Below, one piece after another: positions 1 through 62,691 of a stretch of DNA of 64,000 bases. The stretch's first letter is position 1. Each line of letters begins with the position of its first letter. The notes beneath the pieces are model-generated. The model saw only the letters and a list, made by a program, of their open reading frames with translations. It was not told the DNA's origin and made no database searches. Both the position numbers and the translations under genes were made by a program. Source of the stretch: Isurus oxyrinchus (lineage: Eukaryota); contig JANJGN010000018.1 in NCBI GenBank assembly GCA_026770705.1, positions 1,922,001-1,986,000 on the forward strand, in the 5' to 3' direction.

Positions 1-980
1 CTTCGTCACTTTCCATTTGTTGGTTACACACCATTGACTGTGCGTTAAAATTGGTTTGGGTTTTTATTTTAACCAGGAGGATCTACTAGCATATCTATAT
101 TCCCTGTTTTACGTGTTATAGATAATCTCACATTGATTCCGGCATTTCTGCTGAGGAAAATCAGTTACTGTGGCATCTGCATCGGTTCATTCACTAGTGC
201 GTGCCGTCCTGAAAAGGATCCTCAACTCATTGAGTTAATTTACATTCCAGAATTTGATATGCTTCATTCTAACAGCGACAGTCTCCGCTCTTTGTACACT
301 GACTTTAAATTACCAGGTTAGAATTGGATGACCAGTCGGCTGTTTCTGTACAAGAGGTGCAGAGTTCAAGATAAAGCAAACTGATGGGAGTGATCACTTT
401 CGACATTTTGTCACCCGAGCCTCAGTTTCAGTTGGAAATCAATTATTCAGCTGTAAAACATGTTAGCCCAATTTACGGTCTCCAAAAGCAATGGGTAAAT
501 TGGGCATTTTGATTTTGCTGGATTTAAAATTAAACACATGTGCAAAGTGTCTACTAGCTCACAATTCAAAACAATTAAACTGACTATTTCATGATTCAGT
601 TCCACAATCCGAATTAATCACGAAGTTAAGGAAATATATTCCAATTTTTGACAAAGCATTTTTTTCATTACTGGATATGTGAAAATAATTGCTGGAGCAA
701 AACATAATGCATGCCTCCAGCAGTTCTTGATTTAGAAGAAATGTTGCTCAAAGCAATTACAATGTATATCGATGGTATGTTAACCTCATCCACCCTCAGC
801 GCTCGATAACATGGTGGCCTGCATGTTCCTAGGTCACTTTACATTTGTTGGTTTCACACCATTGACTGTCCGTTAACGTTTTCCAAAATGGGTTTCGGTT
901 TTTATTTTAACCCGGAGGATATTCTGGTATCTCTGTATTCCATATCTAAAATGTTATAGAACATCTCACATTGATTCCCG
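1..980 (+). repeat. Local direct duplication of intronic block (1-145 ~ 834-980)
   Basis: gtcactttccatttgttggttacacaccattgactgt...ttttattttaacc.ggaggat...tctcacattgattcc occurs at both places, each directly upstream of an SRCR-like exon remnant. Confidence 0.9.
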
Positions 981-3900
981 CAATCAGTTGGATTTCTGCA
1001 ACCCATTGCGTGATTTCTGCAATCCCTGTACAAGCTTGTGCCTACATAGTATATGTAAATCAGGAGTTGGTTGGAATAGTCTGTAATTCCCTTGGTACTG
1101 GAAGTCGCAATATTATTCAAGAAGCTGCACACCAGCTGGGTCATAGCAACCCCCTTGATCGGAAGTCCAGTCATCTCCTCAATAGGTACCACATGTTCAA
1201 GATGCACAAGATAGAAATGTGTCCTAAAACCTAATACAAAGCGACATAAAGGGAAACCAGACTGCGAGATCATAACGGATATCTCAATAACTACAACAAG
1301 ATCCTATGTAAAGAAAAATATATGATTCATGCGGAAAAGGCTGACAAACATTCATGTTCAGAAATAATAACCGTATAAATGTCTGCCTTATGAAAATGAT
1401 TTTAATTTTAAAGTATGTCACCCCCCCAAAAAAAAAACGAATAATCAAGCATGTTCACAGGTTGATCCCTGGGTAAATGTGTGATCTTATGCTCTCCTCA
1501 GCTTTCAGCGTGCAATTAATACTCATTATAACCATAATTATTGTATCACAACCAACATTGATCTATCACAATTTACAATTTATCTATGCAAAATTAACAT
1601 TCATAATTCCAAAGTTGAAAACACTACTTGAAATTATTCAGCTCATTACAACAAACAGCAGTCAAAAAGCTCTGCCACAGATAAACATCTGTTTGAAAAA
1701 TATGTGCACGTGTTCCGTTGGCAGGAACTGCAACTTTAACAGGGTTTGTACAGTCAGTGATTGACCTTACATCCCAGAATCTTATAGATGCTTTTCTAAG
1801 AGTAAATGAGCTCTGCTTCTAGCACACTGTGTTTAAAATCAGTTGCAATCGACTCTGCTTTGCTTTTGCAAAAGCAGCAAGGGAGATATTAAAACTAACT
1901 GTCTCGTTAGTGGAGATAGATTCTGGATAAACTCGAAATTTGATATGCATTTAGTCGCACATTCCAAGTTTTTCTTAAGCAGATGGAAGTTACTATTTAG
2001 ATGGCGCAGTTATTAATAGCATTGGATAAATTAATTTCACAGCTTGATGTCGAATGAACGGAAACTAAAGCAGTCCGTAATATGCATTCAATGAACGTTC
2101 TACAAGTTAAAGAAACACTTTCAAATCTCGTTCCAGCTAAACCAATTGAACAAATTAGGCCCGCCTGTGAGGAATTGAAACTGATCAGCGCTTGGTATTT
2201 GAAAACGATTCGGGATAACATTAATGTAATCTTCGGTCTCCTTTCTGCACTGGCAAAAAAAGTTCGTTAAATTAGCGACATAAATAGGATTTTAGAATTT
2301 AAACTTTTTGTCTCTATATTTTTTAAAAGTTAAAGTAAACACCGATGGAAATCTATTCCGGTAAATGCAAAATGAATCTCATAACAGTTCTCAAATTAAT
2401 TCCCTTTCATTAAACCAGAATTTATTTTTGCACCTTCGATTGATAAAGCACCAAAAAAAATCCTCGCCTCGTTGCAAAGTAATTGAAAAAATAAAAATAA
2501 TTATTCCCGAGATCCCCTTCACTCTACTTAAAAGTTATCGGGAACGTGGAAGGAGGAGGGAAAAAAATGATAATTTCCTGACTCTGTACATATAAAAAGT
2601 ATGAAGTCGAAACACGAACCAGTTTTGAAAAAAAATAAATGCTAAAAAAAACTCAGAGCAACGACGTAAATATAAGAACAATTTTTGCTGTGCAACTGCT
2701 TGGGGATTACAGTTAACACCTTTATTCATGATGAAAGCTAATTCAAGCAATATGGATGCTGAAAATGATTAATATTTTATTATACTCTATTCAAAAATCA
2801 TGTCCAAAACGCAAATGTTGAAAAAATCATTTCCATCCTTCTTAATCTAATTCATCAAGAACTTAAGGGAAAAAAATGCGGTTTTCGACAAAGCATTTTC
2901 TTCAGTCCGGCATATCTGAAAATAATTGCTGGAGCAATATCTAATACGTGCCTCCAGCATTTCTTTGATTTGGAAGACATGTTTCTCAAAGCAATTACAA
3001 TATCTGGTGTTTAGTGTCAGTCATTTAATTTTTTAAAAATGGTTACTTATTTAGAGAACCATATGCCTTTTACCGTGTACCTGACAAGAGTGCAGCAAGA
3101 TTTCCATTTCAGTAAACGAGCATTTGTTGTTGCTATTTGGAGATTTATAATTGTAACCGAAGAGACACGCTGGAATCAGCAGAAGAGCTGAACCAAGGCA
3201 TCGACATAAAAGTGAACAAAAATATCAGGCCGTTGGAAGAAAATAAAGGCACAAGACTCGATATTCCATTAGACACCACATGGGACCGTGAAAAGCAATG
3301 AGAATACGGAATAAATTTGAGCCAATTTACCCATGACATAACCCTTAAAAGTAAACAAATAAATGCGAATTTTAACCTTCATAGCAAGTGGTCATATCTT
3401 GGAAGGATGTATCAACAAATTAAGCAAGAATATTGATAAATGCTATTTCCTATCAGTTAAAGAAGTTGCAGTAACAATACATTTGGGGAATGTGCTTAAT
3501 CATCAAAACAAAACATTATCATATTAATTGTGCGCTTTATTCTTATTTCAAAAAGCACTATTTATCGAACTTGCAAATCACTGTCAGGCTGAATCAACTG
3601 CTATGGATGCTTTAGTGCTTGCCCCTATATCACACGCACTTCAGACGGGACGTCGACTGAGAAATACCCCTAACATTAATATGTGTGGTGGCTCCCACGT
3701 TAGGAGGTGCAGTGTGATACTCAGTAAATTAACGTAAACCAAAACTCTGCTCCCTTTTATTGTAACTGTGACGGCTCTGTACGTCGTACCATCTCAGCTG
3801 AAATTGTCTGATCGGAGTATAAATTTTCATGAGCTGTGCGTGAGGAAAGACGCAGGGGACTAAATAAAAGCATCTGCTGTGTTATTTATGTTCTACTTCG

Positions 3901-5010
3901 GATTTAAATCAGCCTGAGGTAAATACCAAATTGGCACTTGAAACAACCGCCAATCAGGTGTAACTGCTTTCAGATACGATACAAAATAATCGATTCTGAA
4001 ATCACTTGAACTGCTTAATATATTCTTTAGATGAAATGTCAGCAATAAACTCGACAACTTCAATCTTCAATTCATACGATCATAATGAAGGGCAGAAATA
4101 AATGTATATCGTCATTTTTCCACAAATAAAGCCCATAGAGGAATACTATTTCTGGGGAAATCCAGCTGCTTTTCATTTGTGCCTAGTTCACCGTTTCGAA
4201 AGTATTGAACTCCGAACTAGGCAGGCTGTTAAGGGACCTGGGGTGAACGCCGATAGAGAACAGGGACCTATGTACGCGGGTAAAGCCAGAGCACTTTGCG
4301 ACACAAAATTACGGCCTTCGGCTAAATGGGCCTTCTCGGGTCGAAAAATCGGACACCACCTCGTCCCACTTTCCAGTTTTGGCCCCTAGGTTTTGCGCTA
4401 CCATAAATTAAATGCGCAACCGAGCATGTTTTAAATGTAATGAGGGTTTCTGCATTCACCGGCATGTTACTTAGCGAGCTTCCTTCGGTCGACGTATTAT
4501 TATACATCACTATCCCATCCCACAACAGGCAAAAGTGTTAATGTTGAAACAAAAATCTAAAAATTGCCTTCCATTACATCTCAATACTTTCAGCAATAAA
4601 TAACAATATGTCTATTGATAAGATTCATTGTTTAATAATAATGGAAGCCTCAAGGTACTACATAATAACATCAATTTTGTAGTCACTCACAGTTCAGAAC
4701 TTGCAGTGCAGTTAGAGTCAGAAAGGACCGCAGCATTGTCCCGCCACTGGGTTTCTGCGATGGGAATTGAGAATTAACCGAATGTTATGCACAGCTGCCA
4801 GGGTCTCCTTCGAGCATCTTCTGAAAACCCGACTGAGGCGTCAATTCAGAATTTGAAAACGTATGTAGAGGTTTGATTCTTCCTTCCAAACAAGCGGTAG
4901 ATGTTATCATGTGAGAGCTCTATGTTGCTGCCTGGTAACACACCAATGAGAATGAACCTGCCCATTAATGGACAAAACGAGCCGAGGCCCCATCCACCGC
5001 CTTTTCCTGT
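150..5010 (+). pseudogene. SRCR receptor pseudogene G1 (CD163/WC1/DMBT1-like), about 9 decayed SRCR exons plus TM/tail remnants; probably begins left of the window
   Basis: Frameshifted SRCR-like translations at ~150-460 (EVQSS..AN*WE*SLST ~ EVQCSGNES.LWEC), ~985-1300 (YVNQELVGIVCN..HQLGH ~ YYNGTWGTVCD..RQLGC), ~1680-1960 (NLIDA..ELCF), ~1960-2270 (GIETDQRL..G*H*CN), ~2500-2760 (ATAWG), ~3090-3390 (LEIYN), ~3430-3690 (NNTFGEC), ~3795-4030 (QLKLSD), ~4100-4390 (YYFWG..AVKGPG..GPM). Tail-like pieces at ~4790-4895 (GSPSS..EFENV) and ~4920-5010 (LLPGN). Many stops and most cysteines lost. Confidence 0.6.
600..3000 (+). repeat. Second local direct duplication (600-760 ~ 2835-3000)
   Basis: gacaaagcatttt...gaaaataattgctggagcaa...tgcctccagca...ctcaaagcaattacaat present in both blocks, each downstream of an SRCR-like exon remnant. 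Confidence 0.9.
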
Positions 5011-5069
5011 GAGGAAGGAAAGGAAATGAGTCACCGACACTATATCAGCTCATTGAATCTTTGAAACTT

Positions 5070-15080: not shown

Positions 15081-15399
15081 CAGAGAGCACTGTAGACACA
15101 CAGACTCCGACTTCGTACCGTGAGCCCTCACCGGACAAGGAAATGTCCCCTCACAGAACCACCCCACCCCTGCAGGCCCCGTTCCCCAACAGACTGTGAT
15201 GTTAAACAATCTAGTAACAGCAAAAGCTTTATCCATCGCCCCACCCCAAAAGCCTCGGATTCCACCCGCCGCTCCTCCCAGGTTATTTTGCACTTCCTTG
15301 TTGATGATTCAGTCAGGCACCACCATCACCATCATCAGACACCAGTCCACATATGTAGGTAACTGTCACTTCTGGATGGCCATCAGTTGAATCGACCTT

Positions 15400-18300
15400 T
15401 CCCGATTTTCAGAATTATGTTCATTGGGCTATTGTCGCATTTCACTTCCTTTTCTCTGAATTTAGTTTAGTTAAGAATGTTAATCCACGTGTTAATGGGG
15501 GTATTGTAAAGCGGCAACATTGCTGCTCTGTGATACTTTATATTAACTGGCTGCACAAGAAAATCAGATAAATGTTATAAACAAGACGGTTAAAAAATAA
15601 CAAAATTAATTTGGAAAAACTCAGCAGGTCTGGCCGCATCGGCGGAGAAGAAAACTGTTGATGTTTTGAGTCCTCATGACCCTTCAAAAGAAATAGGTGA
15701 ATCCAAGGAAAGGGTGAAATATAAGCTGGTATAAGGTGTGTGTGTGTGTGTTGGGGGGGGGCGGGGGGGGGGGGGGGTGGGGGGGGGTGGTTGGGTGGTG
15801 GGAGAGAAGTGCAGGGGGGGTGTTTGTAGGGACAAGCAAGCAGTGATAGAAGCAGATCATCAAAAGATGTCACAGACAAAAGAACAAAAGAACACATAGG
15901 TGTTGAAGTTGGTGATATTATCTAAACAAATGTGCTAATTAAGAATGGATGGTAGGGCACTCAAAGTATAGCTCTATTGGGGGTGGGGGAGCATAAAATA
16001 TTTAAAAATATTTAAACATAATGAAAATATGTGGGAAAAGAAAAATCTATATAATTTATTGGAAAAAAAAATAAAAGGAAGGTGGAAGAAAAAGAAAGGG
16101 GTGGGGATGGAGAAGGGATTTCAAGACTATAAGTTGTTGAATTCAATTTTCAGACTGGAAGGCTGTAAAGTGCCTAGTCGTAAAATGAGCTGCTGTTCCT
16201 CCAGTTTGCGTTGGGCTTCACTGGAACAATGCAGCAAGCCAAGGACAGACATGTGAGCATGAGAGGAGGGTCGACTGTTAAAATGGCAAGTAACAGGGAG
16301 GTTTGGGTCATACTTGTGGACAGACCGCAGGTGTTCTGCAAAGCAGTCGCCCAGTTTGGTCTCTCCAATGTAGAGGAGACCGCATTGGGAGCAACAAATA
16401 CAGTGGATTCAGCTGGGGGAAATGCAAGTGAAATGCTGCTTCACTTGAAAGGTGTGTTTGGGCACTTGGACGGTGAGGAGAGAGAAAGTAAAGGGGCTGC
16501 TGTTACATATTTTGCTTGGGCATGGGGAGGAGCCATATGTGGGGGTTGAGGATTAGGGGGTGATGGAGGAGTGGACCAGGGTGTCCCAGAGGGAATGATC
16601 CCTATGGAAAGCTGACAGTGGGGTGGGGGTTGAAGGAAAGATGTGTTTGGTGGTGGCATCATGCTGGAGTTGGCGGAAATGGCAGAGGATGATCCTTTGA
16701 ATGTGGAGGCTGGTGGGGTGATAAGTGAAGAGAAGGGGTACCCTATCATGTATCTGGGAGGGAGGAGAAGGTTTGAGGGCGGATGCGCAGGAGATGGGCT
16801 GGACATTGTTGAGGGCCCTGTCAACGACCGTGGGTGGAACACCTTAGTTAAGGAAGAAGAAGGACATGTCAGAGGAACCGTTTTTGAAGGTAGCATCATT
16901 GGAACAGATGCGACGGAGGCGAAGGAACTGAGAGAATGTGATGGAGTCCTTACAGCAAGCTGGATGTGAGGAGTTGTAGTCGAGTTAGCTGGAGGAGTCG
17001 GTAGGCTTGTAATGGATATTGGTGGAAAGTCTATCACCAGAGATTGAGACAGAGAGGTCAAGGAAGGGAAGGGAAGTGTCAGAGATGGACCACGTGAAAA
17101 TGATGCACGGTTGGAGATTGGAAGCAAAATTAATACATTTTTCCAAGTCCCGACGAGAGCATGAAGCAGTAGCTAAGTAATCATCGATATATCGGAGAAA
17201 GAGTTGTGAAGGGGGCCGGAGTATTCAACTCTTTTATTCTCTGTCGATGCTGCCAGACCTGCTGAGTTTTTCCAGGAAATTCTGTTTTTGTTTTGGATTT
17301 CCAGCATCCGCAGTTTTTTGTTTCTATTTTTATAACAGAATTATTCTGCAAGATATAATAATAAATAAAATGATGGGCATGTTTCGGCTCTCTAGCCAAG
17401 GTTCATTGAGATTCTACACCTTCTTTCAACTCAGGAGTCATCGTCTGATTTTACAAGAAAGCACAATATGTCTGATCATTGGGATATAGAAATTTAAAAT
17501 CATAAGAAAGAATAAATCAGCGGATGATGCAAGTGAAGTATCAAAAATTAAGTTAAATATGACATGCCAGGGAACATTATCATATATAGATTTTCACGTC
17601 TAATATACCCTGGGACAATGTAGAACAGCCCACCACGCTGACTGTTCCATGAACAACGGCCTCTGTATACGCTGTATAATATTTTGTTTTCAGTTTGTCG
17701 GGAGAAATGGCCAGAATCAGTCAAAGTTCAAAGCGACTGTGAACCATATAGAAAGCAGTGTGGCTGCAAATAGTAATGTGATTATGACGCAGCTCACAGC
17801 AGTAATTTACAGGAACTAACCTCGGAAATAAAAGAAAACGTTCCATCGCAATATCATTTCAGTGAACGCGACAGGGGGATCGGCCACAGACATGCCCAGC
17901 AGGTGCGTAGTGATACATTTTGACAGACCGCACTTTCCTCAGGAAATGTTCCCAATCGATACTAATTTAACTGGGACAACGGAAGAAAAAAAAAGTATAC
18001 ATGTTTCAGTTAAGATGCAGTTAAGAAAACAAGAGGTGATACGCCCTGTGGTGGAATTCACTACTTTCTTCCTTCATCGCACGATTCACGCTTTTTTTTT
18101 TAACATTTGGATTTTATTTTAAAAAACTGTCAGAAGTAATGAGCACACAATTTTGCGGATGCTGCAGGAAGATCTGAGTGACTCTGCAGTGCCAGTCGAG
18201 AGGCAGATTTTCTTTGCTTTTTTACACAGGCGGAATCCAAATGTTTAAATTCTCATATGGCCTGAAGTCAAAGGGCAGGGAAGCCTGAGCGAAATCATTT

Positions 18301-25330: not shown

Positions 25331-25742
25331 TGAATTGTTCGCCTTCATCGCAGCAAGCAGCATGAACTACGGCAGCTGAGTACTGTGGGGGAAACAAAGG
25401 AGCTGATTTATACGTTCTCCAGGGACTTAGTGACCCAGTGAAGCAGAAACGTGTTAGACCGCCTTCAAGTGGGTGCAATCACACTTATTTTATCTCAGGC
25501 AATCAATATTTCTGGAGGATTCTAATAGCTTTTTTTTAGATTTTCAGCAACTTCAATGTGTAACATCACCAACTGTGCACTGTCCAATATCTTCCAGCAG
25601 TCTGCTCTTTCCACACCTAAAGAACAACAATAATCCATTGTTTCGTGACCTTAGAAATCTCGGTCGTTTTACATCTCAAACTTGATGCCTGATGGTTAGA
25701 TGTTATCACTTGGTTTCACCAAAAGTCTCTGTTTGATCGTAG

Positions 25743-25890
25743 GTCCGCTTCCGGGATATTATGATGATTTCAGGATGAAACCATTGAATGTCAGGTCGAT
25801 TGGTTGCTGCTGGAATCTGGCCCTTGTGATCTCTTCACAGTGCTAGATGCCGGTAGTGATCTCCCCACTCTCGGTGATTTGAATTGCTGA
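25743..25890 (+). pseudogene. Cytoplasmic-tail exon of G2 (Tyr motif), one frameshift
   Basis: After ..gatcgtag: GPLPGYYDD(fs)DETIECQVDWLLLESGPCDLFTVLDAGSDLPTLGDLNC*. Aligns with 50419-50529 (PRDYDDAETLGNDSNGDHLLLDCAHDYVFTQQSAGG). Confidence 0.8.
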
Positions 25891-27009
25891 CAATCACGCA
25901 GTCAACCCTCCTCTGTGCCCTGGCGCTGTTATGATTTCCATTCCATTCCCTCTTCAAATGTATGTACAAACAAAGCTAATGAGAAAAAAAAAAAGAACAA
26001 CTATATCGGAGCTTCTCCGTCCAAAAAAAAATGTGAACTGTGCACGTGTAGTTTAATTTTAACGTCAATTGATTGCAAGAATATTTTGACTTTGAATATT
26101 TGAGCAATGAATAACAGTGAAATTCTTCCCAAAACCATTTTTCTATCACTGCATTAATGGACAGGGACACTGACAGTGGGGTATGATTCCTTTAAATGAG
26201 TACAGAGAGGGGAATACTGATCTAGATAATCCACACACAAAAAAAAACAATGCAGGTGGAAGCGTCAGTCAAGATTCGATGCTAAACGAATATCTGAGCT
26301 ATGTGCGCTATTGGACATCTCGCCAGGTAGAATATTCTCAATATAGTTAGAAATTAATGATGCAGAGCAACAAATGAATCGTTGTTGCCAGTGACAACAT
26401 CTATTAGATTGAAAACGGAGAGAATAGCTTTTTTTCTTGAAAAAAAAACGTTGTTTACTTGTATCGCAACCGACGTGAGGACCAGTTCCTGCAGATGTGC
26501 AGATGCGCTGTCCGTTTCAGCCTGCAGCTACGTAAAGTGAGTGATGATTTTACGGGCAGCTCTGTTTCCGGTTTCTGAATTATGCACCGTATGATAGTTG
26601 GCCTTCTTACAAATTTCCCAGATACAACTAAGACGGTAGCCATTTTAAAGCTGTGTGCAAAGTGGAGAGTTTTGCTTCAGGAAAGGCCTAAGAATCATTC
26701 CGAAAAACAACATTGTTTTTCAATTAGTTTATCAAAGCACAGATTGCAAGAGGGCTGAAAGTTACAAGAGATCATTTGCACCATGCAAACTGGTAAATGT
26801 TAATAATAATGAAACAGTTGCGAAGACAAAAAACACAGCAAACACGGAGTTCGGATAGCCCCACGAACTTTCTACTGAACTTGCAGTAACTCATTTCACA
26901 AAGCATTCTGGAGTAGTATATCTCCACATTTCTACCCTCAAAACTGGAAATAATCACTTATCGGTCCTTAGCTTCTTATGCTCTGTATTAGTGCCTTCTG
27001 TGAGGCAAC

Positions 27010-37130: not shown

Positions 37131-39751
37131 ATGTTCGCATGATAATTACCGGAAAAAGGGTATAAAGGGATAATTTCAGAAACTGAAATTAAATAAGCAG
37201 CATCATCCTCTGCTGTAGAAGTTAAATAAGGGACAATGTTAGCCGAAACATTAACCTTGATACATTTATCGCTAAACATTTTTTAACAGACATGAAACAT
37301 CCTCCAATAAACATATATTAACTTGTCTTAAATATAGAAAATCTCCATGGAGTGGAGAGATCAGTAAGCTTAAATAATCATTTCAGAGTAAAGCCTCCTT
37401 TTTGCTATCAGTTGGCACAAGTCTGCACTGACAGAACCTCCTATTGACCAATGTTCACTGGTGCCAAATTTTCAACTCTGATTAGTGCAAACTACAAGTG
37501 CAAAGCAATATGCAATTTGGACGGACAGCAATCATAAAGTAATTGAGCCCATAACTGAGGAAAAGTGAAGTCACATCCGAACAAACGTTTGGAAGAATCT
37601 ATTGGCAGAATGGAATTGAGAGAAACTGACAAGTTGGTGGTTAGTGATAGCATCCTCAAGAGAGGAGGATTGTTTAAATTTTAATCAACGTAACTTTGTG
37701 GATCATTTTCTAAGGGTACATTATTCTTGTCAGAAATGTAGACTCTCCTGTCCACCTTCAACGACTTTATGTCCCCAAGTTTGGAAGTTCCCTGAACCTG
37801 CTATTCGTATTGTAGTAATCTACACTAGGCAAATCGTTGTTGCCCCTTCCCTTTCATTACTTGAAATTGACAGTCCAACCCAGTCCTCCATCACCCTGAA
37901 TTTTTGCTCTCCTCTCTATTGGACAATCCCATGCCATCACAGGTGAGAATCCCATTGGAACGAGGTTGTACCGCTGACCTGTCCCTCACAATCTAACAGT
38001 TATAACAAAATCGATCAAATTATAGGAACCAAATTATTTTGCCGAAGTCTCCCACAGGTTTTACCGCAAAAAACGAGTATCGCTGGACAAATAAATTGCT
38101 GTTCCGAGCAGCGAATTTAAACAGTTTCAATTATAGCTAACATTCCGATTTTTTACTAAAGTTCCCGATTGATTTCTTATAATTGTAGAAATGCCAGAAA
38201 AAAACATCTTCTGATTACCTCTGGGGAAACTCACGATGATTGTCACCTTATTCCATTTTGCTTCACTGTTGCAATGTGTTTGGGATTGCGGTGGGCAGAG
38301 CGAATTATATAAAAAATATACACACGAAATCCAGATCAAATGCATGCCAACAATATCTTCACAAATGTTTACATGAATTCCTTTTAAACGGGTCATTTTA
38401 AGACAGAGGGTGTCAGTTTCAGTTTGGAATTGTTTAGATTAGCTCCATCTGTGAAATAATGAGTCCGTTTAATGTTTTGTTAAAGAGCTTGCGGTTTGTG
38501 ACTTACAGGAAAAAGTGTAATTCGCAAGTCAATTCATCTAACACAAAAAACATGTGGACCAATATTGTAAAAGTAACCGTGCTTTAAAATACTGTATGTA
38601 ACTCTATTCGGATATAAGCGAAAACCAGTCTCTGAAATTGCCAACATGTCTGTGCTTCACATAATTATTTCCACAAGAAAAGTGATCGCTTTAATATAAT
38701 GCATGGATTTGTTTCCCTTGATTTGATTCATGACTTTGTATGGAGTAATACCGCTTGAGGAATGATATCCAATATTCAAAGGACATGATTAAAGGAACTT
38801 AAGTTTTTTTTTTAATTTTCTAGTACTCGCTGGGGTGAGGGCTGTAGTTATGAAAAAGTCGTTTTATTTTCCTTCCGCACTGGTAAATCCCGTTGTTCCC
38901 TTTGCAGATTTTTTACAGGACAATGAACAAATAGCAGAAGTGACGACGGGAAGCACAATGGAAATTAGGTAAAGATTACTTGTTTCCTCTTTTTATTCAA
39001 ATCAAATGACATAGATAAAACAGTAAAGGAGAATTATCTTTAGTTCTGCTCTCGGCTCCTGTGCAGTCCAGTGAATGAAACAGCAGTGGACACTTGGAAA
39101 TTTTACAGGCCAAATGCTGAAGCTCTGCTCAGTGAGGAGACAATAGGAGCAGTTACTATCTTAACCACACGGTGGAAGTTGCCGTCATGGTGCGGACAGT
39201 AACGTCAAACAAAATGTTCGTGCATGCCCGAAATGGTGGAATTCTGTTTGTCCAATGGCATCCCAGGTATTAGGACAGAACGAAGATTGGTTTAAGATGT
39301 GAACACTGCTCCTCTGTGCACCGCCCTTGGGACAGGAATAAAGAAGATTTGAATGTATTTGACAGCCTTTGTCTTATCATTATAAACCTTTTCATTCCAT
39401 CTCCTTACATTAATAAATTACGCCAGTATACCAAAGATGTAATAAAATTCAATCCTTTCACTTCCAACTAAGACAATATAATCATTAATATTGATGAATA
39501 GTTTTGTTCAGAATCCAATGTTATATCTCAGGTGGTACTAAATGACTGCTTCCACGATTGTCTCCAATTTGACATTTCAAAATTTATAGTCAGAGTTGAA
39601 TATCACTCAAGGCGATGAAACTTCGGTGAAGTGCACTCGGAAACCATTTCTAGACCCTGTGCGGGCATCGGCTGCACAGCGTTGATCAACAACGTGCATT
39701 AATCTAGAAATTATCGGCAATTTGATATTAAGCGGAGTAGAATGTTATTCC

Positions 39752-43985: not shown

Positions 43986-44759
43986 ACAACTGTATTCAAA
44001 ATAAATATATGGTTATAGATGAACAATGTCAACCTTTGGCTTAAAATATCTTGTTTAAAATAAGTTCAGGTACACCTTTCACAAATTATTGTTATTGGCA
44101 TTCCGTTGACCTAACGACAATGAGTCTAGCTATTAAGTACTTCGCTGTATCCACCACAATCCCAAATCCATTACATCAATGAAGTAGACGGGAGTATGGA
44201 GAGTATAACCAAAAATTTTTTCAGAGACACTCAAGTGATTTTTTATCAGCAATGCAGCGAGTGTAAATAGTCTAAACGGGTCATTCAGGAAACATTCTGA
44301 GTTTTAGCTGAAGCTGGAACTGCTTACCTTTGCTGCTCAGAACCGCAATCTGATGTTCCACTGCGTTTTTGTGGTAAAATATGTGGGAATTGTCGGCAAA
44401 ATAATTTGGTTAATTTAATTTGCTCTAATTAATTATTGATGTTAAATTTTGAGGGACAGGTCAGTAAGAATGGACGGACCCAATGGAACACTTTTCGTTC
44501 ACCTGTGTCATAGAGAGGAGACCGGGTTTTAGAGCGATTGTGGACTGGGAGTGGTGGTACAGAGCGGATAGACAAATTGCAGTAATGAAGTGGATGAGGT
44601 GGGAAAGGTTTATTTATTTTAGAACACCGAAACATTTGTAGAAGGGTCAGAGAAACCAAGAACATTGGAACATAACGACGATGAAGAGAGAGAGAGGTTA
44701 GTCTCCATGTCTGTCAAGCATAAATGTTTTCTAGGAAAACTGAGCCACATAGTTACCTT

Positions 44760-45720
44760 GATGACAATTCATCCAATCATGCTTTTTTGCAGACGCTATT
44801 CCATACTCCCAACTCTTCAGTTTCCCTCACTTCCATCCTGGCAATACCACCTTCCAAACACTGCTTCTGATATGGTACCTCTTGTACTCAATTATGGGCT
44901 CACTTACATCATTGTTGCTGTCCGTCGAACACGCCTATCCCGTTGCACACAATTCTGATCACACTCGACACCATTTTTTTTTCACCATGTCAAGGTATAC
45001 TACTCAATATTCACTCTAGAATACTACTCTTTCAGAGCACATGCTTTGCCGTTTTAGCCAAATTCTATGCCATACTGTCACAAAACCAATCCAAGTCTCC
45101 GCTCGACTTAAGAAAAAAAATTAAGACAACATTCCCCATGCACCAAATGGCCATTGCTTCTTCTCCAAGAAGACCGAAACTGCTTTCAATGGCACCCTCC
45201 TATAAAAGTGCTGGGTGTCCAGCTGCTATTCTTTCATGCCCTCTTCTGCAATCTTAAGAGCCATAATCACTCATGCCAACGTGAAAAGGTTGATTATTAT
45301 CCCCATTCTTCCTGTTTACATTGGGTAGACTAAGAATACACTCTCTCGTTATTTTGCTTAAAATCTCTGTCAAGCCCCAAATTGTGATGCTAATCTTCAA
45401 GTAATTTTTCAGTATAAATATTACTCGCACATCAGCCAGACCATTCCCTCCTCAGCCTCCTGCCCTATTTCAATGAACTGCGCTTGAATGTGCTTCAAAG
45501 GAACCTCACATTCCTTTTAGAAACATTAAAAATTTCCAAACTCAGCTGAGTTAAGATAATTCAGGTTATAAACTTTATTTCTGTTGTCCTGTTTCCAGCG
45601 ACAACAGGTAATGATCCTGTTCTTCATTTAGTCACCCCTGTTGCCCAATGTATCGCAGAACATCTCTTTCATCAGCATTCTGTCTTCTCACTTTCAAAGT
45701 ACTGCTGCATACTTGTGTTG
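44760..45720 (+). mobile_element. Old Penelope-like RT fragment
   Basis: LDTIFFSP..TTFPMHQ..RRP and ccattccctcctcagc (IPFSQ-like) correspond to the PLE RT in other copies. Confidence 0.6.
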
Positions 45721-47809
45721 TTACAGAATAACGTGATCCGGTTTAAGCAACAGGGCAATTGGCTGAAACATGAAGCCTGATGGTCTGCAAAAAACGGTTT
45801 CTTTGTATTGTAAATAGTTTAACATTTTGCGTTCATGTTTCATTTCACAGGGCATATGGCCTATGTTCATTTAACAAACAGAGAGAGCGTGGAGGCATAG
45901 TGAGTTGTGCATTCAATTGAAATTAAAGATCATGATGTTCAGAAAGCCTTTAACAACTGAGGAGACGCTGAAAAAAATATATGAACATGCGATTATCAAA
46001 GTTGGTTCAATTCTCAGTCAAATTCTACCTTCAAATCAAGGAACTTCACGTCGATTACCATACTCAATGCAACCAACAATGATGGGTTCACTTTTTTAAA
46101 AGCATAAATTTTCTGCTTTTGCCCATTGAAGTACGGCAGGCATTCTGAACTGTAACACTCTGAAGTGATGCAGCATTGCACACCATGCATGGGTTGTCTT
46201 AGCTTTACAGGGCAACTTGCTAACTATTTGAGGAACTATCATCACTCAATGCGGCTCCCAGCGAGAAGCAAATCAAATAGACAAATTACTGGAAACTGGT
46301 AACGAAATGAAAGTACACATTCATCGATTTCCTGCAGAAGAGACATTATGTGTTCCCTCTAAACAGGGAATTATGTGTGTCATTGAAGACCAGCTCTTGG
46401 AAACGAGATGGACATCCATATCCCGAATGCATAAAACGCAGCTCCAATCCTACAGGGCCTCACAACAGTCACTGTGTGTTTTGCTGTTCTGTGGATAACA
46501 GGAAGTACCTGGCGCTGTGGCGTCATCTCTTGTGTTATATTGGCAGTTCCTCTGTAATTGTGACATAATGTTGCTGGATTTCCCAACTCGGAATCTGAAT
46601 TGGAGCTGTATAACATACAGCCTGCATAAAACATCAAGGGCTAATATATCAGAGCAAATTCATGAATTCACTGGAATTGCAGTGCAGTTTAGTGCCTCCA
46701 AACATACTTCTCCATTATCCCAAAACAGATTCACGGCATAAAATTACCATTATTTGTGTGCAATTTCCAAAAGGTCTCACCCCACATATCTACAGATCTG
46801 GAAAAATGACTCTGATTGCCAATCAATCAATAAAGTTCTGTAATGCTAACACATCAATCCTCCCTGTGTTTCTGAAGTGAAATAGAAAATGCCATGGCAA
46901 ATGCGGCCGTTTTTCTGACCTTAAATATAGTTGAATATAAGATGACCATTGCTGCTGATCAAGAAGCACCAAGAGGATTGAGCATATGTAAATATAACGC
47001 ATTGACTCGCTTTCTCCAGTCACGAGAAAGCATCTTCAATTTAGATCAGCTGTTTGCTTTCTGCGACCCAACATAAATCGACTTATTTTAATGTCAACCC
47101 GAAATCAGCAAGTGACAGATTTTATCTGGAAAATTAATGTTTCATGCCGATCAATACATGAGCACAGCTGAGGTATAAATTAACTTTTTGTTATCATGAG
47201 CTACTCATCTGAAATGACATTTACCGAATGCTACTTAGAATTAAAACAAGCTCACCATACATGAACATTGAATTAAAAATTTTAAAAAAAACATTAAACT
47301 GTATTGTCAACGGTGATGAAAATGCATTGATACATATTAATTTCCTTCAACACTTTGCCACGCAGTCATTGGTTTCTGCTGGTGTACTTGTTTCTCTCCA
47401 AACTGATGGACTCCGACGACTTTGTTGATGGCAAACATAATTCATTGAGCATGGGACATAGACATTGACAGCAACAATTTGTCAGAGCAACTTATAAAGT
47501 CTCACAGAATGTTGCAGCTTGGGGGCATTGCTGCCCTGTATTTTCAAGGAGTCAGTGAATTTTATAAATATTGGCACTTAGACATGAACAGCATGAAAAT
47601 GGTAACAAGGTGCCATGGCTTCGAATGGACATTTTAAAATTTCTGATTCGCAAAAAGGAACCTTGGTTATTATGTTCCAAATGCAGAATTGTTTCACAAT
47701 CTCTGAAATGTTTACAGGAACCTTCCATGAATGTGAGTTCTGAGGATTCAACTACCAGCATTGCAATTCCTCAGTTGTATTATTATGAGTAGGTTAGCGA
47801 GTTCGAAGG

Positions 47810-47980
47810 TTAGGAGTTATGACCATCAGTAGCCATTTCGGTCCTTCTATTCTGCTTTGCCATTCAACTTGACCATGAATGATCTGGCTGTAATCTCAAC
47901 TCCGCTGTCATGTCTGCCCGTCATAAATCCCTGTGCGTAAAAAATAAATCTGCAAACTCTGCCTTTAGAATAGCATTTAA
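47810..47980 (-). mobile_element. CR1 3' tail fragment
   Basis: ctgctttgccattcaacttgaccatg..gatct..tctcaactcc matches other CR1 tails. Confidence 0.7.
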
Positions 47981-48889
47981 CAAATGCCAAATCTAGTAAA
48001 CAAAAAGAATACTAATGGTGATATCAACATGTAAAAGCTGAAAGTTACACAGTATCCTATAAAAATATTGGCCCACGTTCTAATTCCTTGTCGTTAGAAC
48101 ACTATACCCGAGAAATGACATGTACAGATGACATCAAAACTAGGGTGTGAGGATATAATGGAAAAGGATGGAGACGCTGCACTGCCTAAGTGTCGTTGAG
48201 TGTCTCATCAAGTAGTAGCAGCGACGTGATATTTAATTAAAACGCTGAACTTAGTAGACAGGATTGGAAATCGATTATCGCCAAGAGCACTAGCACCAAC
48301 GGATCTGGAAGAAGCCAACATCCAAAAAAAGCATGAACTGCCGCAGATATCTTAATTCCTAAAACACTGCACCCCATTTCACTGTACATATTTATATTAT
48401 TCCATAATGTTGTTCTCAAATGGTTTTCAAATCTCCCGTACTCTGGAGGGGACCTGTCAACTATCAGATGCAGAGCTCATGTTCTCCCGGACAATATTTG
48501 AGAGCTAAATTGCCACGAAGTTGTTATTAATAACAAAGATAAACCATCCCGAAACATAATCATGAATAATGGCGAACGAGAATTGTTACATTGTTAACCA
48601 AACACCTTCAGACAGTCAGATTGTCTGGAACACTTTATAATTCTAACACTTAATATTATTAACTGGATACATTGTCGAGGGAAATGGGAAAGAAATCAAG
48701 GCCCATATTTTAAGGTTGTTAAATATTCTACCGACGAAAACAGCAAAACCGATAGAAGCAGTTATATGTGTCTCATTGCCTTTGAATGTTGGACGGTTCA
48801 AGTCTAAAATTAACACGGCAATGTCTGAATACTTTGGTGAATCCAATAATGCAATGTTCACCTTTAAGCAAGGTATAGTGAAATCATTG

Positions 48890-49330: not shown

Positions 49331-49779
49331 AATACGGGTCACAAAAGGCTTGACAGCCACTTTTTGGTTCAATTGCCCACGAGTTCCTTTCTCTTCGTTC
49401 AAATAGGACGGATGTAACGTCTCCGAAAAAGAAAGAGAAGGGGAGTATTGGGGAACGGAAAGGATTCTGGATAAGGAATCCACGCCCATTGTCGCACTAA
49501 GGGATATATTGTCTTCTCGAGTTCATCCGGAACATTTACTGTCCATCCGTGGATGCCTTGATAAGCTGATAACGGTCCTTCACCTTAAAACACTCGACTC
49601 CAGTTTGCGAATGTTCTGGACAAGATGGCTTAAGGTAACAAACACCTGCACATTGCGACATGGACGATTAATTATTTTGATGTCTACTCTAATGGACTGA
49701 ATGCTTCTGCACCGGGATGACACTATAATGACATAAATAATTGCTCCAAGAACCAAAGTATTTTCCCTCTCTTTAACAG

Positions 49780-49890
49780 TTTCTGCTTCCATTAACTCGC
49801 TCAATCATATCGAATATTACACCTGCGACTTTTCGAATGACAAAGGTCCTGGATCAGAAAATCCTGACGAGAACTCCTCCAGCATTCAGG
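49780..49890 (+). pseudogene. G4 cytoplasmic exon (111 bp, phase 1-1, open)
   Basis: Strong acceptor ttttccctctctttaacag; VSASINSLNHIEYYTCDFSNDKGPGSENPDENSSSIQ; donor reads gcgggg instead of gt. Confidence 0.75.
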
Positions 49891-50418
49891 GCGGGGCAAC
49901 TTTTAGTTTCGACCATCTGTTTTCGTCCTTGAAACTCAGTGAAAATGACAATCGAATATGAAGTATGAAAAAAAACTAGTACACCATTTAGTTGCACGGC
50001 CAATGATATCAGAATTTACAGAATGACTTCAGTTAAAAAAAACGCTTCTAAAATACTTTCGGCCGATACAATTTAGTGTGATTGCACTCAATAATATAAA
50101 TGAGTGGAATAGTTTCATTTAGAGTACATATCATGTTATTCGTTTCATGACAAGGCTCAATAATCTGTTAAATGTGAAACGCGCATGCAGGCTGGCGAGA
50201 TCATTGAGTCAGTGAGCAACGTGACATCAAAACAAAATAATAAAAATACTGTGACGCGAATTGTTCCAAAATTTTTCCACGCTTTAACTCCCTCCCGTAT
50301 ACATGCAATAGAACCATTGTCCACTCCTCTGATTGTTTGCTTTCTTGGCAAGTCTCAATGTTATTCAATTATTCATCGTTAGCAATTCCTCTCAAAGAAA
50401 ATCATTTGTTCCTCCCAG

Positions 50419-50529
50419 CTCCCCGCGATTATGACGATGCTGAGACTCTAGGCAATGATTCGAATGGGGATCACTTGCTGCTGGACTGCGCTCATGATTA
50501 TGTTTTCACACAGCAAAGTGCCGGCGGCG
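50419..50529 (+). pseudogene. G4 cytoplasmic exon with DYDD motif (111 bp, phase 1-1, open)
   Basis: Acceptor tttgttcctcccag; APRDYDDAETLGNDSNGDHLLLDCAHDYVFTQQSAGG; donor reads ctatgt. Read-through stops at 50535-50537. Confidence 0.8.
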
Positions 50530-51014
50530 CTATGTGAAGTCTGGGTCAGTAAGAAATTTATTTATCTTGTCAGACTGGCTCTCTGTATTCTTGGTGACTT
50601 TCTTCCTCTCAGTTTATATCAGTTCCCAAATGGCTGGAAAATCTGCAGAACCTGTCACTAACGGGAGAAGTGTTGCTTGTATGGTTCGGTAGACGGGTTC
50701 TGCGCTACATTCATAACCTCGACTTAGTTTATGATTGTTTGTTTTGGGTGGACTGCGGCCAACCACGGTCTCAAATAAGTCCATCAGTTAGCTGAGTCTC
50801 TTCCGGGATGCGTTGGAGACATCTCTGCATTAGTTTTTCTTCTCCTGTTGTGAGAATTCCACCTCCCACCACTGATTTCAGATTAGATGATTATTTCTGT
50901 TTATTCATTCACTCACCTGCCCACATGTGAGGAATGAACTGGATCTGTTTCATTCATACCGGCGCTGGAACAAAGCATTGTTAGGTCTATGTTCCTGTTG
51001 AAGTGATACGATTG

Positions 51015-55059: not shown

Positions 55060-57590
55060 TAGTGATACAACCCTCCCTCAGCAGCACATCTAATCCCCAC
55101 AAAACTCTAACACTCACCAGGTCACACAATCCCTCTATGTCTCATCCAACATGAGGGCATTCTGTCCCCCTGCAAATCCATCCTTTATCAACACATCCAG
55201 TTCGTTTACACATATATACCTCAATAATACACCTGGTCAATCTGAATAGCCATCCATCAACAGGACATTCTGTCTCTCTACAGCACCATCCCTCACAAAG
55301 ACAACCCGTCTTCCTTTACCTTCCTCCCCCGTCAGAACTTGCATTGACTCTGAATACCAACCTTACCAGGATATCCTACCACTCTACACATCCATGCTGT
55401 AGCAGGTAATCAATTACCTCCACATAAATATCTTTCACCAGGGCAGCCAATCCTACCACACCTCCATCCCTCATTAGGAGATTCAGTCCCTCTAAGCCTC
55501 CGTCCAATAATTCAGACCATCTGCTCCTTTACCATCACCAGGATACCCAAGCTCTCTACACTGTCATCAATCAACAGGACCAGCAGTCACATCTGACCTC
55601 CATCCATCACCAGGACATGCAGTTCTTCTGCACATCCAACCCTCAATAAGTCGACTTACCATCCGATAATTACAATGATGATTACTTTGGTGCTGCTTGA
55701 TGCTCTCGTCGGGACTTCTAAAAATGTATTAATTTTGCTTCCAATCTCCACCCCTCCATCATTTTCACATGGTCCATCTCTGAGACTTCTCTTCCCTTCC
55801 TTAACCTCCCTGTCTCAATTTCTGATGATAGACTGGCCACCAATATCCATTACAAGCCTACCGATTCCCAGAGATAGCTCCATTACAGCTCCTCACACCC
55901 CGTTTCCTGTAAGAACTCCATCCCATTCTCTCAGTTTGTTTCCCTCCATTTAATCTGTTCTGATGATGCAACATTCAAAAACTGCTCCTCTGACATGTCC
56001 TCCTTCTACCTTAACCGAGGTTTTCCACCCATGGTCGTTGTCAGGGCCCTCAACCGTGTCCGTCCCATCTCCTGCGCATCCGCCCTCACGCCTTCTCCTC
56101 CCTCCCAGAAACATGATAGGGTCCCCCTTGTCCTCACTTATCACCCCACCAGCCTCCGCATTCAAAGGATCATCCTCTGCCATTTCCGCCAACTCCAGCA
56201 TGATGCTACCACCAAACACGTCTTCCCTTCACCCCCCTCCCCCCTCCCCCCCCCCACCCCCCGGGGGCATTCCGCAGGGATCATTCCCTCCAGGATAACC
56301 TGGTCCACTCCTCCATCACCCCTTACTCCTCAACAACCACCTATGACAGCTCCCCATGCCCACGAAAAAGAAGCAACACCTGCCCCTTCAACTCCTCGCT
56401 CCTCACCGTCCTAGGGCCCAAACGTTCCTTTCAAATGAAGCAGCATTTCACTTGTATTTCTCCCAAACTAGTCTACAGCCTTTGTTGCGCCCAATGCGGT
56501 CGCCTCTACATTGGCGAGACCGAACGTAAACTGCGCGACCGCTTTGTAGAACACCTGCGGTTGTCCACAAGAATGACCCAAACCTCCCTGTCGCTTGCCA
56601 TTTTAATACTCCATCCTGCTCTCTTGTCCACATGTCTGTCTTCGGCTTGCTGCATTGCTCCAGTGCAGCCCAATGCAAACTGAAGGAATAGCACCTCATC
56701 TTCCGGACAATGTACTTTACAGCCTTCCGGACTGAATTTTGAATTCAACAACCTTAGATGTTGAACTCCCTCCTCCATCCCAACGCCCTTTCCATGTCTT
56801 CTGCCTTCCTTTTGTTTTTTCCAATAATTTACATAGATTTTTCCCACCTATTTCCATTAGTTCTACATCTTTTATGCCCTGCGAGTTTTTCCACCCCACT
56901 CCCACTAGAACTGTACCATGAGTACCCTGCCATCCATTCTTAATTAGGATAATTGTTTAGATAATATCACCACCTTCAACAACTCTTTGTTCCTTTGTCT
57001 ATGACATCTTTGGATTATCACTGCTTGCTTGTCTCTACAACCACAAAACCCACCCCACCGCATCTCGCCCCCCAGCCACCCATCCCCCCCCCCCCCCCCC
57101 CCAACCTTAAACCAGGTTATATTTCACCCCTCTCCTAATATTCATTCAGTTTTGTTAAAGGGACATGAGGACTCAAAACATCAACTGTTTTCTTGTCTGC
57201 CGATGCGCCCAGACCTGCTGAGTTTTTCCAGGTATTGCTATTTTTGTTTACCATCTACATCTTCATTACTCAGCCGGGCATTCATTAAGTCTGCATTCAT
57301 ATTCCTCACCTGGACATCATCCTTTTCCATACTACCTGATTCACCCCTGGCATCTGTTCCCTCTACATTTCTCTTTTCGCGGACACCCAGTCCTTCTGCA
57401 CTTTCATTCCTCACGAGGACATCCAGTCCATGTACCTCTCCAGTGCTCAACAGAACAACCAAAGTTTCAGCAAGTTCATCTCTCACCAACACAGTAAATC
57501 TCTCTACAACTCTATCCCTCAGCCATAAATCCATTCACTCCAACACCTCAGCTTCTGTTAAGGATAGCCTAAGGACACTATCTCTCAGCT
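55060..57590 (+). repeat. Degenerate ~36-bp minisatellite (55060-55670 and 57255-57590), split by a Penelope insertion
   Basis: catccctcaccaggacatcc-like unit recurs at 55261, 55297, 55333, 55367, 55403 and again at 57274, 57310, 57347, 57415. Confidence 0.8.
55672..57250 (+). mobile_element. Penelope-like element, 5'-truncated (RT C-terminus, GIY-YIG, tail)
   Basis: DDYFGAA, YKPTDS..IPFSQ, NRGFP..HDRVPLVLTYHP, LVYSLCCAQCGRLYIGETERKLRDRFVEH; same family as 15591-17333. Confidence 0.96.
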
Positions 57591-60796: not shown

Positions 60797-60889
60797 CAGA
60801 TGGAGACATGCGTTGTGAGTCAAAATGTTAAGCTGCTCACTGCAGCTGAACACTTTACCCATTCTGAATGCTATCGTTGAAAATCCGTC

Positions 60890-62691
60890 TGAGCACAGAG
60901 AACAGAATATACTGGCGAATAATGTTGTTGAAAGAAGAGAAGAGACCGTTGGAGATAGAGAGAGAACAAAATAACAAAATAACAAAATGCTATCAACAGT
61001 GTGAATCATGTACGAGGTTTGCCGGCTGATATGCTCACACAACATTATTGAGACAAAATTAATTTTAAGTTGTCCAAGTGATGCTGGCAGATCTCGTGAG
61101 GATTGATGGTGGAACTGCGCGGTGTGCGTTCAACCTGTCAAGCCTTCAAGAGAGTGTTTTTTTAAGCTTTATTTTACATCCTTACTGCAGAATAGGTACA
61201 ATAGCGTCATGTTTTCATTTCCATGATGACAATTGACTGCTTCACTCTCGTGATTTAAATACTATCAGAAAATTCAGTTGAGAAAACAGCAAGATGGTTC
61301 CAAGAACATATTTAAATTTAGTGCTCAAGATAACGTGCTAAGGGAATTGATCACATATGTTTTGTTCCCAGCTTCAATGGTTCAATAGCACACATGGGCA
61401 CAGGTAATGATCTTTTTTTGCGCTAACTGACCTCTGTTAAAGACATTTTTAGACTATTATTCTGCTGAAATGTACCCCTGTTTACCTCATTCTCCTCTAA
61501 TTTTGTTATTTTAACCAAGTTCCAGATCCATCAGCTCCATTCTTCCTTCCAGCTCTGATATGTGATAGCCTTTTTCTTCCTTAATATCTCATTCACTGTC
61601 TCGGCCTCCAAAATCTTCTTCCAACGGGATCCAAAACTTTCAATTCACTGCCATTTGATTTTAAAGAAAACTTTGTTTCTAGATTTCATGAATCACTGTT
61701 GTTTTTTTAAACGTAAAATGCAATCAAAGGTTCAAAATAAAACAGAGTGAATCGTATGATGCTGCAACAAAGTATTAACTTCCACCACAGATGGTGCCAC
61801 CTCCTGCTGTGGCCCCACATGACAAAAATGACTTTATGCTTTATCTTTTACCCTCTTGCAGTTAACTTACTGGCGATTGTGATCCTTTCCCGAGGAAAGT
61901 GCGTTTTGCACAAATGTTTCACTGGGCACCAGCTTGGAAAGGATGTGATCGATAACCCTGTCATACTCCCTGAAGTGATAATGCGATTGAATGGGCCGCC
62001 TTCTTTCCAAGATTAGTTACTGAAAATTACTTCTGTGTGCTGCCCCATAATCACCTTGATATTTTCAGCCAGAGCGTTTTCCAGGTGTTTCACAGTTGCT
62101 TTCAACTTTTACTGATTCCTGGCCACTTGTTTGAAAATCTGAGAAGAAAATACTGTACCGAGAAAACTGAAGCTGTGGATTTTGGAACATTGAGTGTGAC
62201 GGGCTGCTTTTAAATGGTTTCATGGTACATTATACGGGCACCAATATATAAACTTGATAATATAATGTTACTTCACACACATCTGTATATATGACGTTTC
62301 TTCTGATTTTGCTTCTCTATCTCCGAATGGTCAGACATATTGTGATTTCCCGTATAATCCGACAAAGTCTCCAGACCTGCGAAAAGAAAGAGAATCACTA
62401 GGAACTGGAGCTGTTGACCTGAATGAAGTCCATTATTTATTTTTTTCGTATATCTGGCAGTTTAATTTTGTTATTGGCAATCTGCATTGTTTATAGCAAT
62501 TATCTGAATTTTCCACAACATGTTAATATAACAGGACACACAACAAAGCAACAATGCTGCTACTTCACAATACTTGCACCAACACGTGAATTCACATTAT
62601 TGAACATGCAAAATTCAGTGAAGAGTTGGTGAAAGGTGCCAAACGCCCTCTCAACCTAAAATCAAAAAAGGCAAAAAGTCGATTCGAATGA
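60890..62691 (+). pseudogene. GPR139: GPR139-like 7TM receptor pseudogene (copy D)
   Basis: Acceptor ccctcttgcag, exon from 61862: VNLLAIVILSRGKCVLHKCFT..QD*LLKITSVC..CFTVAFNFY*FLATC..KYCTEKTEAV..VRHIV..KSIIYFFRISGSLILL..CTNT..KFSEEL..*. Two in-frame stops plus frameshifts; exon 1 degraded. Family-level call only. Confidence 0.92.

What the first reader, a model, noticed from the sequence alone, without database searches (positions are those of the whole stretch)
150..62691. Interleaved fossil cluster of CD163/WC1-like SRCR receptors and GPR139-like GPCRs
Seen: nearly all non-repeat DNA resolves into two multigene families, four SRCR-TM-Tyr-tail genes and three to four two-exon GPR139-like genes, intermixed and all inactivated. 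Established: group-B SRCR receptors (CD163, WC1) are immune pattern-recognition/co-receptors, and GPR139 is a single amino-acid-sensing GPCR in mammals. Inference: the two families may have co-expanded as a linked birth-and-death receptor locus in cartilaginous fish, possibly a joint immune or chemosensory system whose live members lie elsewhere. This is the best candidate here for an undescribed system, and the ORF track misses it entirely.
Basis: partly seen in the sequence, partly recalled or inferred. Interest (0 to 1): 0.8.

Follow-up and report, generated by a model that had tools for sequence, protein, structure and literature searches.

The report
Dead receptors riding shark immune duplications
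This stretch of shark DNA holds three broken cell-surface receptor genes and only scraps of immune scavenger-receptor genes, and because the receptors were already broken before the block was copied many times, they are most likely passengers of the duplications and not partners in a joint system.

Summary
Partly confirmed; the joint-system reading is not supported. The window has no SRCR domain. It holds tail-exon scraps of two SRCR genes and a likely 5' exon of a third; whole SRCR genes lie just outside both ends. It also holds two near-complete and one fragmentary GPR139-like pseudogene. Coding remnants make up about 4% of the window.

Interleaving is real regionally and recurs genome-wide as a duplicated block. 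But all 10 copies of receptor A examined share three stops, and all 15 copies of receptor B share a stop and frameshifts. The neighbouring SRCR exons stay open, with dN/dS 0.35-0.54. Two copies lost receptor A and kept the SRCR gene. A second SRCR subfamily abuts a different, also broken, receptor clade. Sampled receptor arrays lack SRCR. Motif counts: 73 SRCR tails against 1,455 receptors.

Best reading: hitchhiking in segmental duplications inside a large receptor territory. The scan already noted both families on other DNA. Receptor expression is untested.

The parts
4910..5006 (-). Likely 5' (signal-peptide) exon of the SRCR-TM gene whose six SRCR exons lie just left of the window (G000:C18:1,886-1,921 kb); its splice donor is uncertain
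   Evidence: 10 of 12 residues identical to the N-terminus of skate protein P0243 (E 0.008); conserved in four paralogous blocks and the right-flank pseudogene
15395..15604 (-). 3' part of GPR139-like pseudogene A (TM7 to C-terminus)
   Evidence: family HMM E 1e-4, tblastn E 2e-5
15605..17329 (.). Retroelement insertion that splits pseudogene A (Penelope-like by recalled motifs; not tested with a profile)
   Evidence: 80% similar to 55,677-57,230 and to distant loci; absent from the C20 paralogs
17330..17995 (-). GPR139-like pseudogene A, main exon; 7 stops and 3 frameshifts against an intact relative
25695..25908 (+). Old scrap of the last tail exon of an SRCR-TM gene, inverted relative to the C20, C53 and C105 paralogs
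   Evidence: nhmmer E 8e-16, reversed control empty
26319..26433 (-). Old scrap of the tyrosine-motif tail exon of an SRCR-TM gene
   Evidence: nhmmer E 8e-9; the same scrap is seen on C53 and C105
33449..33804 (-). GPR139-like remnant C, 3' end only
   Evidence: nhmmer E 3e-10 and 0.013, reversed control empty
49746..49929 (+). Orphan tail exon of an SRCR-TM gene; DNA upstream of about 48,870 is unrelated, so the SRCR, TM and first tail exons are missing
   Evidence: 80-83% identical to paralog exons; break mapped
50346..50598 (+). Orphan last tail exon of the same SRCR-TM gene
   Evidence: nhmmer E 1e-55; match to a skate tail
61840..62680 (+). GPR139-like pseudogene B, main exon; 6 stops and several frameshifts; lies about 10 kb upstream of the 5' exon of a decayed SRCR gene right of the window

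Best explanation
The window is the spacer between two old, back-to-back copies of a duplicated block in which a broken GPR139-like receptor gene lies 10-20 kb upstream of a WC1/CD163-like SRCR gene, and the receptors most likely travelled as dead passengers when these blocks were copied. Shown: the block structure, stops and frameshifts shared by all copies examined, open SRCR exons with low dN/dS, and loss of the receptor from some copies. Inferred: an SRCR gene came to lie inside a very large, duplication-prone GPR139-like array. Segmental duplication, probably by unequal crossing-over, then copied tens to hundreds of kilobases at a time. Purifying selection kept the SRCR ectodomain in many copies, while inversions, deletions and retroelements reduced others to the scraps seen here.
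For: Window 1-22.5 kb is 76-84% colinear with G000:C20:79.44-79.46 Mb; 48.9-60.5 kb is 73-76% colinear with the tail region on C47 and C20. Window 0.2-13.7 kb matches the right flank in inverted form at 65-71%, and A matches B at 67-68%. 10 of 10 A copies examined carry stops at codons 13, 57 and 192; 15 of 15 B copies carry a stop at codon 203 and frameshifts near 137 and 144. dN/dS is 0.72-0.94 among A copies, against 0.35-0.54 for the six SRCR exons of four blocks; dS is about equal (0.21-0.25 against 0.23), as expected if they were copied together. Three further A copies lie 16-17 kb upstream of six open SRCR exons. On C53 and C105 about 13 kb containing A is deleted and six open SRCR exons remain. 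In the second SRCR subfamily the nearest receptor belongs to another clade and is broken in 5 of 5 copies read; one double-stop allele occurs 10 times. Control arrays on C21 and C34 (200 kb) hold 15 receptor loci and no SRCR, TM or tail exon.
Against: In the C176-type block, intact-looking receptors lie 20-45 kb from an SRCR gene and were amplified with it, and C53 has an open receptor 36 kb from its SRCR tail, so live neighbours exist. A and B each sit upstream of an SRCR gene at 65-70% identity, so the adjacency is old, and the common ancestor of A and B may have been alive when it began. dN/dS comes from my own NG86 script on alignments projected on one intact relative, so it is rough. Copy numbers on small contigs may include uncollapsed haplotypes.
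Confidence: 0.75

Rival explanations
1. Joint system: SRCR co-receptors and GPR139-like receptors are kept linked because they work in the same leukocytes or sensory cells, and the window is a fossil of such pairs.
For: Co-location far above uniform chance: at most about 3% of the genome lies within 50 kb of one of the 1,455 receptor motifs, yet 4 of 6 SRCR regions fetched without prior knowledge of a neighbour had a receptor within 40 kb. Intact receptors were co-amplified with SRCR genes on C176. The A/B adjacency is old.
Against: The nearest receptors are broken in both SRCR subfamilies and belong to different clades. Two of 6 regions (C105, 70 kb; C17, 80 kb) have SRCR exons and no receptor. 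The linked cases descend from about two blocks, so they are not independent. In skate and whale shark the SRCR proteins and the listed relatives of the receptor sister to A/B lie on contigs of different length (small samples, top 120 of 2,458 receptors only).
Confidence: 0.1
2. Neutral churn: the region duplicates so often that both families ride along with no selection on SRCR copy number, and part of the copy count is assembly redundancy.
For: Many near-identical SRCR exons lie on 0.3-5 Mb contigs. Many SRCR copies are decayed (C17, C18). The left-flank gene has a decaying tail.
Against: dN/dS of 0.35-0.54 and open frames over dS about 0.2 show purifying selection on the SRCR exons. Several copies lie on one contig 200-300 kb apart. 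Spliced contigs of this family are seen in runs guessed to be RNA. This rival concerns what drives copy number, not whether the genes are constrained.
Confidence: 0.15

Closest known systems
WC1 / CD163c-alpha (SCART) multigene families (Herzig et al. 2010, PMC2906472; passages read)
   Same: Tandem SRCR exons, one TM exon, membrane-proximal domain closest to d' (57% to bovine WC1, 60% to CD163A), tail motif YEEI fitting Y-(Q/E)-(D/C/E)-(I/L), lineage-specific expansion.
   Different: Six or seven domains; at least 73 tail motifs in one genome against 18 chicken and 10 platypus genes in the paper; embedded in GPCR arrays; diagnostic domains a or m/l/n not resolved; no SRCR domain inside this window.
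GPR139 / GPR142 and the GPR210A/B orphans (Rinne et al. 2019, PMC6504862; passage read)
   Same: Class A GPCR; GPR139 is the best solved-structure match of an intact relative; databases label the family 'probable GPR139'.
   Different: The match is weak (E 1.5e-8, galanin receptor 6e-8). The family has 1,455 motif matches in this genome and 2,458 database relatives; of the top 120 listed, the 119 with a name are from sharks, skates and rays. The word 'shark' does not occur in that paper's main text.
Birth-and-death gene clusters with hitchhiking pseudogenes in segmental duplications (recalled; e.g. olfactory-receptor pseudogene blocks, and FPR genes beside Siglec genes)
   Same: Block duplication, dead copies amplified with shared lesions, mixed receptor families in one unstable region.
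   Different: This pairing of families and this scale were not found in my literature searches.

Membership tests
Group B SRCR receptor (window sequence itself) | SRCR domain exons present | tested here: not met
   No hit by tblastn, protein HMM or per-exon DNA profiles; only tail exons and a 5' exon.
Group B SRCR receptor (gene flanking the window) | 6-8 cysteine domains, one exon each (definition recalled) | tested here: met
   Six open single-exon domains with 6, 8, 6, 9, 8, 8 Cys; two tested against Pfam hit PF00530 at E 4e-30 and 1e-31.
WC1 / CD163c-alpha type | TM segment and Y-(Q/E)-(D/C/E)-(I/L) tail motif | tested here: met
   YEEI in 73 genomic motif matches and in C47, C20 and C176 genes. 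The left-flank gene has YEKI, and the window's copy of that exon is decayed.
WC1 / CD163c-alpha type | Membrane-proximal d' domain | tested here: met
   Domain 6 best matches d' of bovine WC1 (57%) and of CD163A (60%), by small margins.
WC1 / CD163c-alpha type | Diagnostic domain a (WC1) or m, l, n (CD163c-alpha) | tested here: inconclusive
   Domain 1 best matches d (53%); no CD163c-alpha reference and no domain tree with vertebrate references.
WC1 / CD163c-alpha type | Expression on gamma-delta T cells, co-receptor activity | not testable with these tools
   Spliced contigs exist in unnamed runs guessed to be RNA; tissue unknown.
GPR139 | Class A 7TM fold | tested here: met
   Intact relative hits 7tm_1 at E 6e-20; window copies match the family profile but not Pfam.
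GPR139 | One-to-one orthology with vertebrate GPR139 | tested here: inconclusive
   Best PDB match is GPR139 at E 1.5e-8, barely above galanin receptor; no tree with a true GPR139 was built.
GPR139 | Activation by aromatic amino acids | not testable with these tools
   Needs a functional assay.
Linked co-evolving receptor pair | Both partners intact in linked copies | tested here: not met
   10 of 10 A and 15 of 15 B copies broken; nearest receptor broken in 5 of 5 copies of the second subfamily.
Linked co-evolving receptor pair | Congruent gene trees | tested here: not met
   Congruent only within recent blocks; the two SRCR subfamilies abut different receptor clades.
Linked co-evolving receptor pair | Obligate adjacency | tested here: not met
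   Receptor arrays without SRCR; SRCR genes with no receptor in 70-80 kb.
Linked co-evolving receptor pair | Co-expression | not tested
   No result on receptor expression was obtained; run tissues are not given.

The most novel reading that the evidence does not exclude
Sharks carry an undescribed leukocyte receptor territory in which about 1,500 GPR139-like receptors act as immune pattern or metabolite sensors, and the WC1-like SRCR genes were recruited into it because they share regulation. The recently amplified 300-kb block, with one SRCR gene and several intact receptors, would be its live form.
Probability: 0.1. Interest if true: 0.8.

Novelty: new member of a known kind. Interest (0 to 1): 0.3.

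Why it matters
As found, this is a clean case of pseudogenes hitchhiking in segmental duplications, and a warning that co-amplification is not co-function. Two side results have value. One shark genome carries at least 73 WC1/CD163c-alpha-type tail motifs, which bears on the ancestry of gamma-delta T-cell co-receptors. It also carries 1,455 motif matches of an orphan GPCR family that my nine literature searches did not find described. If those receptors prove to be expressed in leukocytes together with the SRCR genes, that would be a new vertebrate immune receptor complex; nothing here shows it.

Tried and rejected
SRCR domains in the window: tblastn with 10 own-genome domains, of which 3 were displayed and one of those was in the wrong orientation; corrected HMM and nhmmer; 120 database SRCR proteins; per-exon DNA profiles. 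All negative.

The 133-codon frame at 905-1,303 looked exon-like but is broken in paralogs and has no Pfam hit; rejected. Candidate receptor pieces near 42.8, 30.3 and 50.1 kb were weak and absent; rejected. The first exon of receptors A and B was not found. No tRNA and no Rfam family in the window. Of 23 window frames tested against Pfam (2 read-through receptor pieces, 21 ORFs), three gave only sub-threshold hits.

A proximity count from listed coordinates gave 25 of 73 SRCR tails within 50 kb of a listed receptor. The receptor list was partial (74 positions that I picked from truncated listings), so I do not use it as a statistic. The run search listed no holder on record as RNA. Receptor expression remains untested. 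Cross-species synteny could be approached only through contig lengths and accession numbers, which is weak evidence. No fold or complex prediction was run, since no binding is claimed.
Full report
Setting. The window is G000:C18:1,922,001-1,986,000 in a 4.98-Gb genome. Its genes match shark, skate and ray proteins, so it is a cartilaginous fish.

Receptor genes in the window. An intact receptor from elsewhere in the genome has 2,458 database relatives; of the 120 listed, nearly all are named 'probable' or 'putative' GPR139, and all 119 named ones come from sharks, skates and rays. Profiles built from them find pseudogene A at 17,995-17,330 plus 15,604-15,395 (minus, split by a retroelement), pseudogene B at 61,840-62,680 (plus), and a 3' remnant C at 33,804-33,449 (minus); the reversed window gives nothing. 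Against an intact relative A has 7 stops and B has 6, both with frameshifts. The short first exon is present in intact relatives but was not found for A or B. Pfam 7tm_1 hits the intact relative (E 6e-20) and not the two window pieces tested. 'GPR139-like' is a loose label: human GPR139 is the best solved-structure match at only E 1.5e-8, with the galanin receptor at 6e-8.

SRCR genes in the window. No SRCR domain was found by four approaches, and no TM exon. What is present is two orphan tail exons at 49,746-49,929 and 50,346-50,598, cut off upstream by a rearrangement at about 48,870; two much older tail scraps at 25,695-25,908 and 26,433-26,319; and a conserved 5' exon near 5,006-4,910 that matches the N-terminus of a skate SRCR protein. 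That exon likely belongs to a gene just left of the window, whose first SRCR exon ends 1.2 kb before position 1. That gene has six open SRCR exons and an open TM exon, but its tail shows decay: YEKI for YEEI, a missing acceptor, and an early stop in the last exon. A decayed SRCR gene lies 20 kb to the right. Coding remnants total 2,483 of 64,000 bases; about 23% is repeat-like and 72% is non-coding DNA shared with paralogous blocks.

Regional and genome-wide pattern. In 284 kb around the window there are six SRCR-gene traces and five receptor traces, all five broken. The window lies between two back-to-back copies of a unit in which a receptor sits upstream of an SRCR gene on the same strand, about 65-70% identical including non-coding DNA. 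Younger copies at 73-84% lie on C20 and C47. Exact motif counts give 73 SRCR tail motifs and 1,455 receptor motifs, with 0 in both reversed controls. The receptor count includes pseudogenes and possibly haplotype duplicates, and it also misses copies: 8 motif hits against 13 profile hits in 170 kb of C21. Control arrays on C21 and C34 have 15 receptor loci in 200 kb and no SRCR, TM or tail exon. Of six SRCR regions fetched without a known neighbour, four had a receptor within 40 kb and two had none in 70-80 kb. Three of the four descend from one recent block, so they are not independent.

Test of partnership. All 10 A copies examined share stops at codons 13, 57 and 192; all 15 B copies examined share a stop at 203 and frameshifts near 137 and 144. 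These lesions therefore predate the amplifications. dN/dS is 0.72-0.94 among three A copies and 0.59-0.94 between A and B, against 0.35-0.54 for the six SRCR exons of four blocks; one C20 exon has a stop. dS is similar, 0.21-0.25 against 0.23 (own NG86 script, rough). Three more A copies lie 16-17 kb upstream of six open SRCR exons, and a fourth lies near decayed ones. On C53 and C105 the 13 kb holding A is deleted and the SRCR exons stay open. In the second SRCR subfamily (C176 type) the nearest receptor lies 4-5 kb behind the tail, falls in a different well-supported clade (30 receptor rows, midpoint root) and is broken in 5 of 5 copies read. One double-stop allele occurs 10 times, 7 of them within 5.2 kb of a listed tail motif.

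Against my reading. The 320 kb fetched from C176 hold intact-looking receptors 20-45 kb from SRCR genes, with dN/dS 0.22-0.50 among intact pairs, and I recognised no other long-ORF gene family there by eye. C53 has an open receptor 36 kb from its SRCR tail. The A/B adjacency is old enough that the receptor may once have been alive beside the SRCR gene. A shared function of the live block is therefore not excluded.

Expression. Contigs from runs guessed to be RNA join SRCR exons of this family at canonical introns: one joint in X1, X8 and X9, a second in X1 and X9, from two studies. The closest X1 pieces differ by 4-9 letters in 189-316. Tissue is unknown, and no result was obtained for the receptors.

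Other species. In one skate and in whale shark the SRCR proteins and the listed relatives of the receptor sister to A/B lie on contigs of different length. This is weak evidence, from the top 120 of 2,458 receptors only.

Literature. Nine searches (listings and abstract starts only) found no paper on a shark GPR139-like expansion, on shark WC1, or on their linkage; subscription journals are mostly not covered. I read passages of PMC6504862 (GPR210 orphans) and PMC2906472 (WC1/CD163c-alpha domain order and tyrosine motif); their supplements were not opened. Earlier notes of this scan already report the receptor family in this and other genomes and a WC1-like cluster in another shark. Two notes describe the same receptor arrays interleaved with tRNA genes or CHRM2 copies, which fits a general duplication-prone territory; I did not check them.

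Verdict. The mechanism is most likely hitchhiking in segmental duplications (0.75). A joint system is unlikely but open (0.10), and neutral churn with inflated counts gets 0.15. Novelty: new member of a known kind. Interest 0.3.

Noticed in passing
G000 genome-wide: 1,455 exact matches to the receptor motif, with long SRCR-free arrays on C21 and C34; a repertoire on the scale of mammalian odorant receptors (comparison recalled).
   Followed up: partly
G000:C176:280-600 kb and sister contigs C51, C63, C70, C85, C93, C99, C112, C123, C157: A recently amplified block of about 300 kb with one SRCR-TM gene and about eight or nine receptor loci; 155 kb of it holds no receptor or SRCR hit.
   Followed up: partly
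G000:C18:1,886-1,927 kb (L062-L064 and window 4,910-5,006): SRCR gene with an open ectodomain and TM but a decaying cytoplasmic tail; could be a recent pseudogene or a signalling-dead decoy. In the C176 gene the second tail exon is also broken.
   Followed up: partly
window 905-1303 (-), with a partial duplicate at 5-144: A 133-codon open frame behind a good splice acceptor, conserved at about 78-80% in paralogs but frameshifted there; no family hit.
   Followed up: partly
window 15,605-17,329; 22,245-25,067; 55,670-57,263; 63,568-64,000: Copies of a retroelement with reverse-transcriptase and GIY-YIG-like motifs (Penelope-like by recall), of different ages.
   Followed up: no
window 29,627-32,663: LINE-like repeat; its 31.0-32.7 kb part has at least 39 copies on large chromosomes at 83-88% identity; CR1-type by recall.
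   Followed up: no
window 37,498-38,415 and 44,027-48,861: Old inverted duplication (about 66%) also present in the C20 paralog; no coding signal found.
   Followed up: partly
G000:C48:3.0-3.5 Mb; C46, C70, C99, C540: Further SRCR arrays or subfamilies distinct from the one studied here.
   Followed up: no
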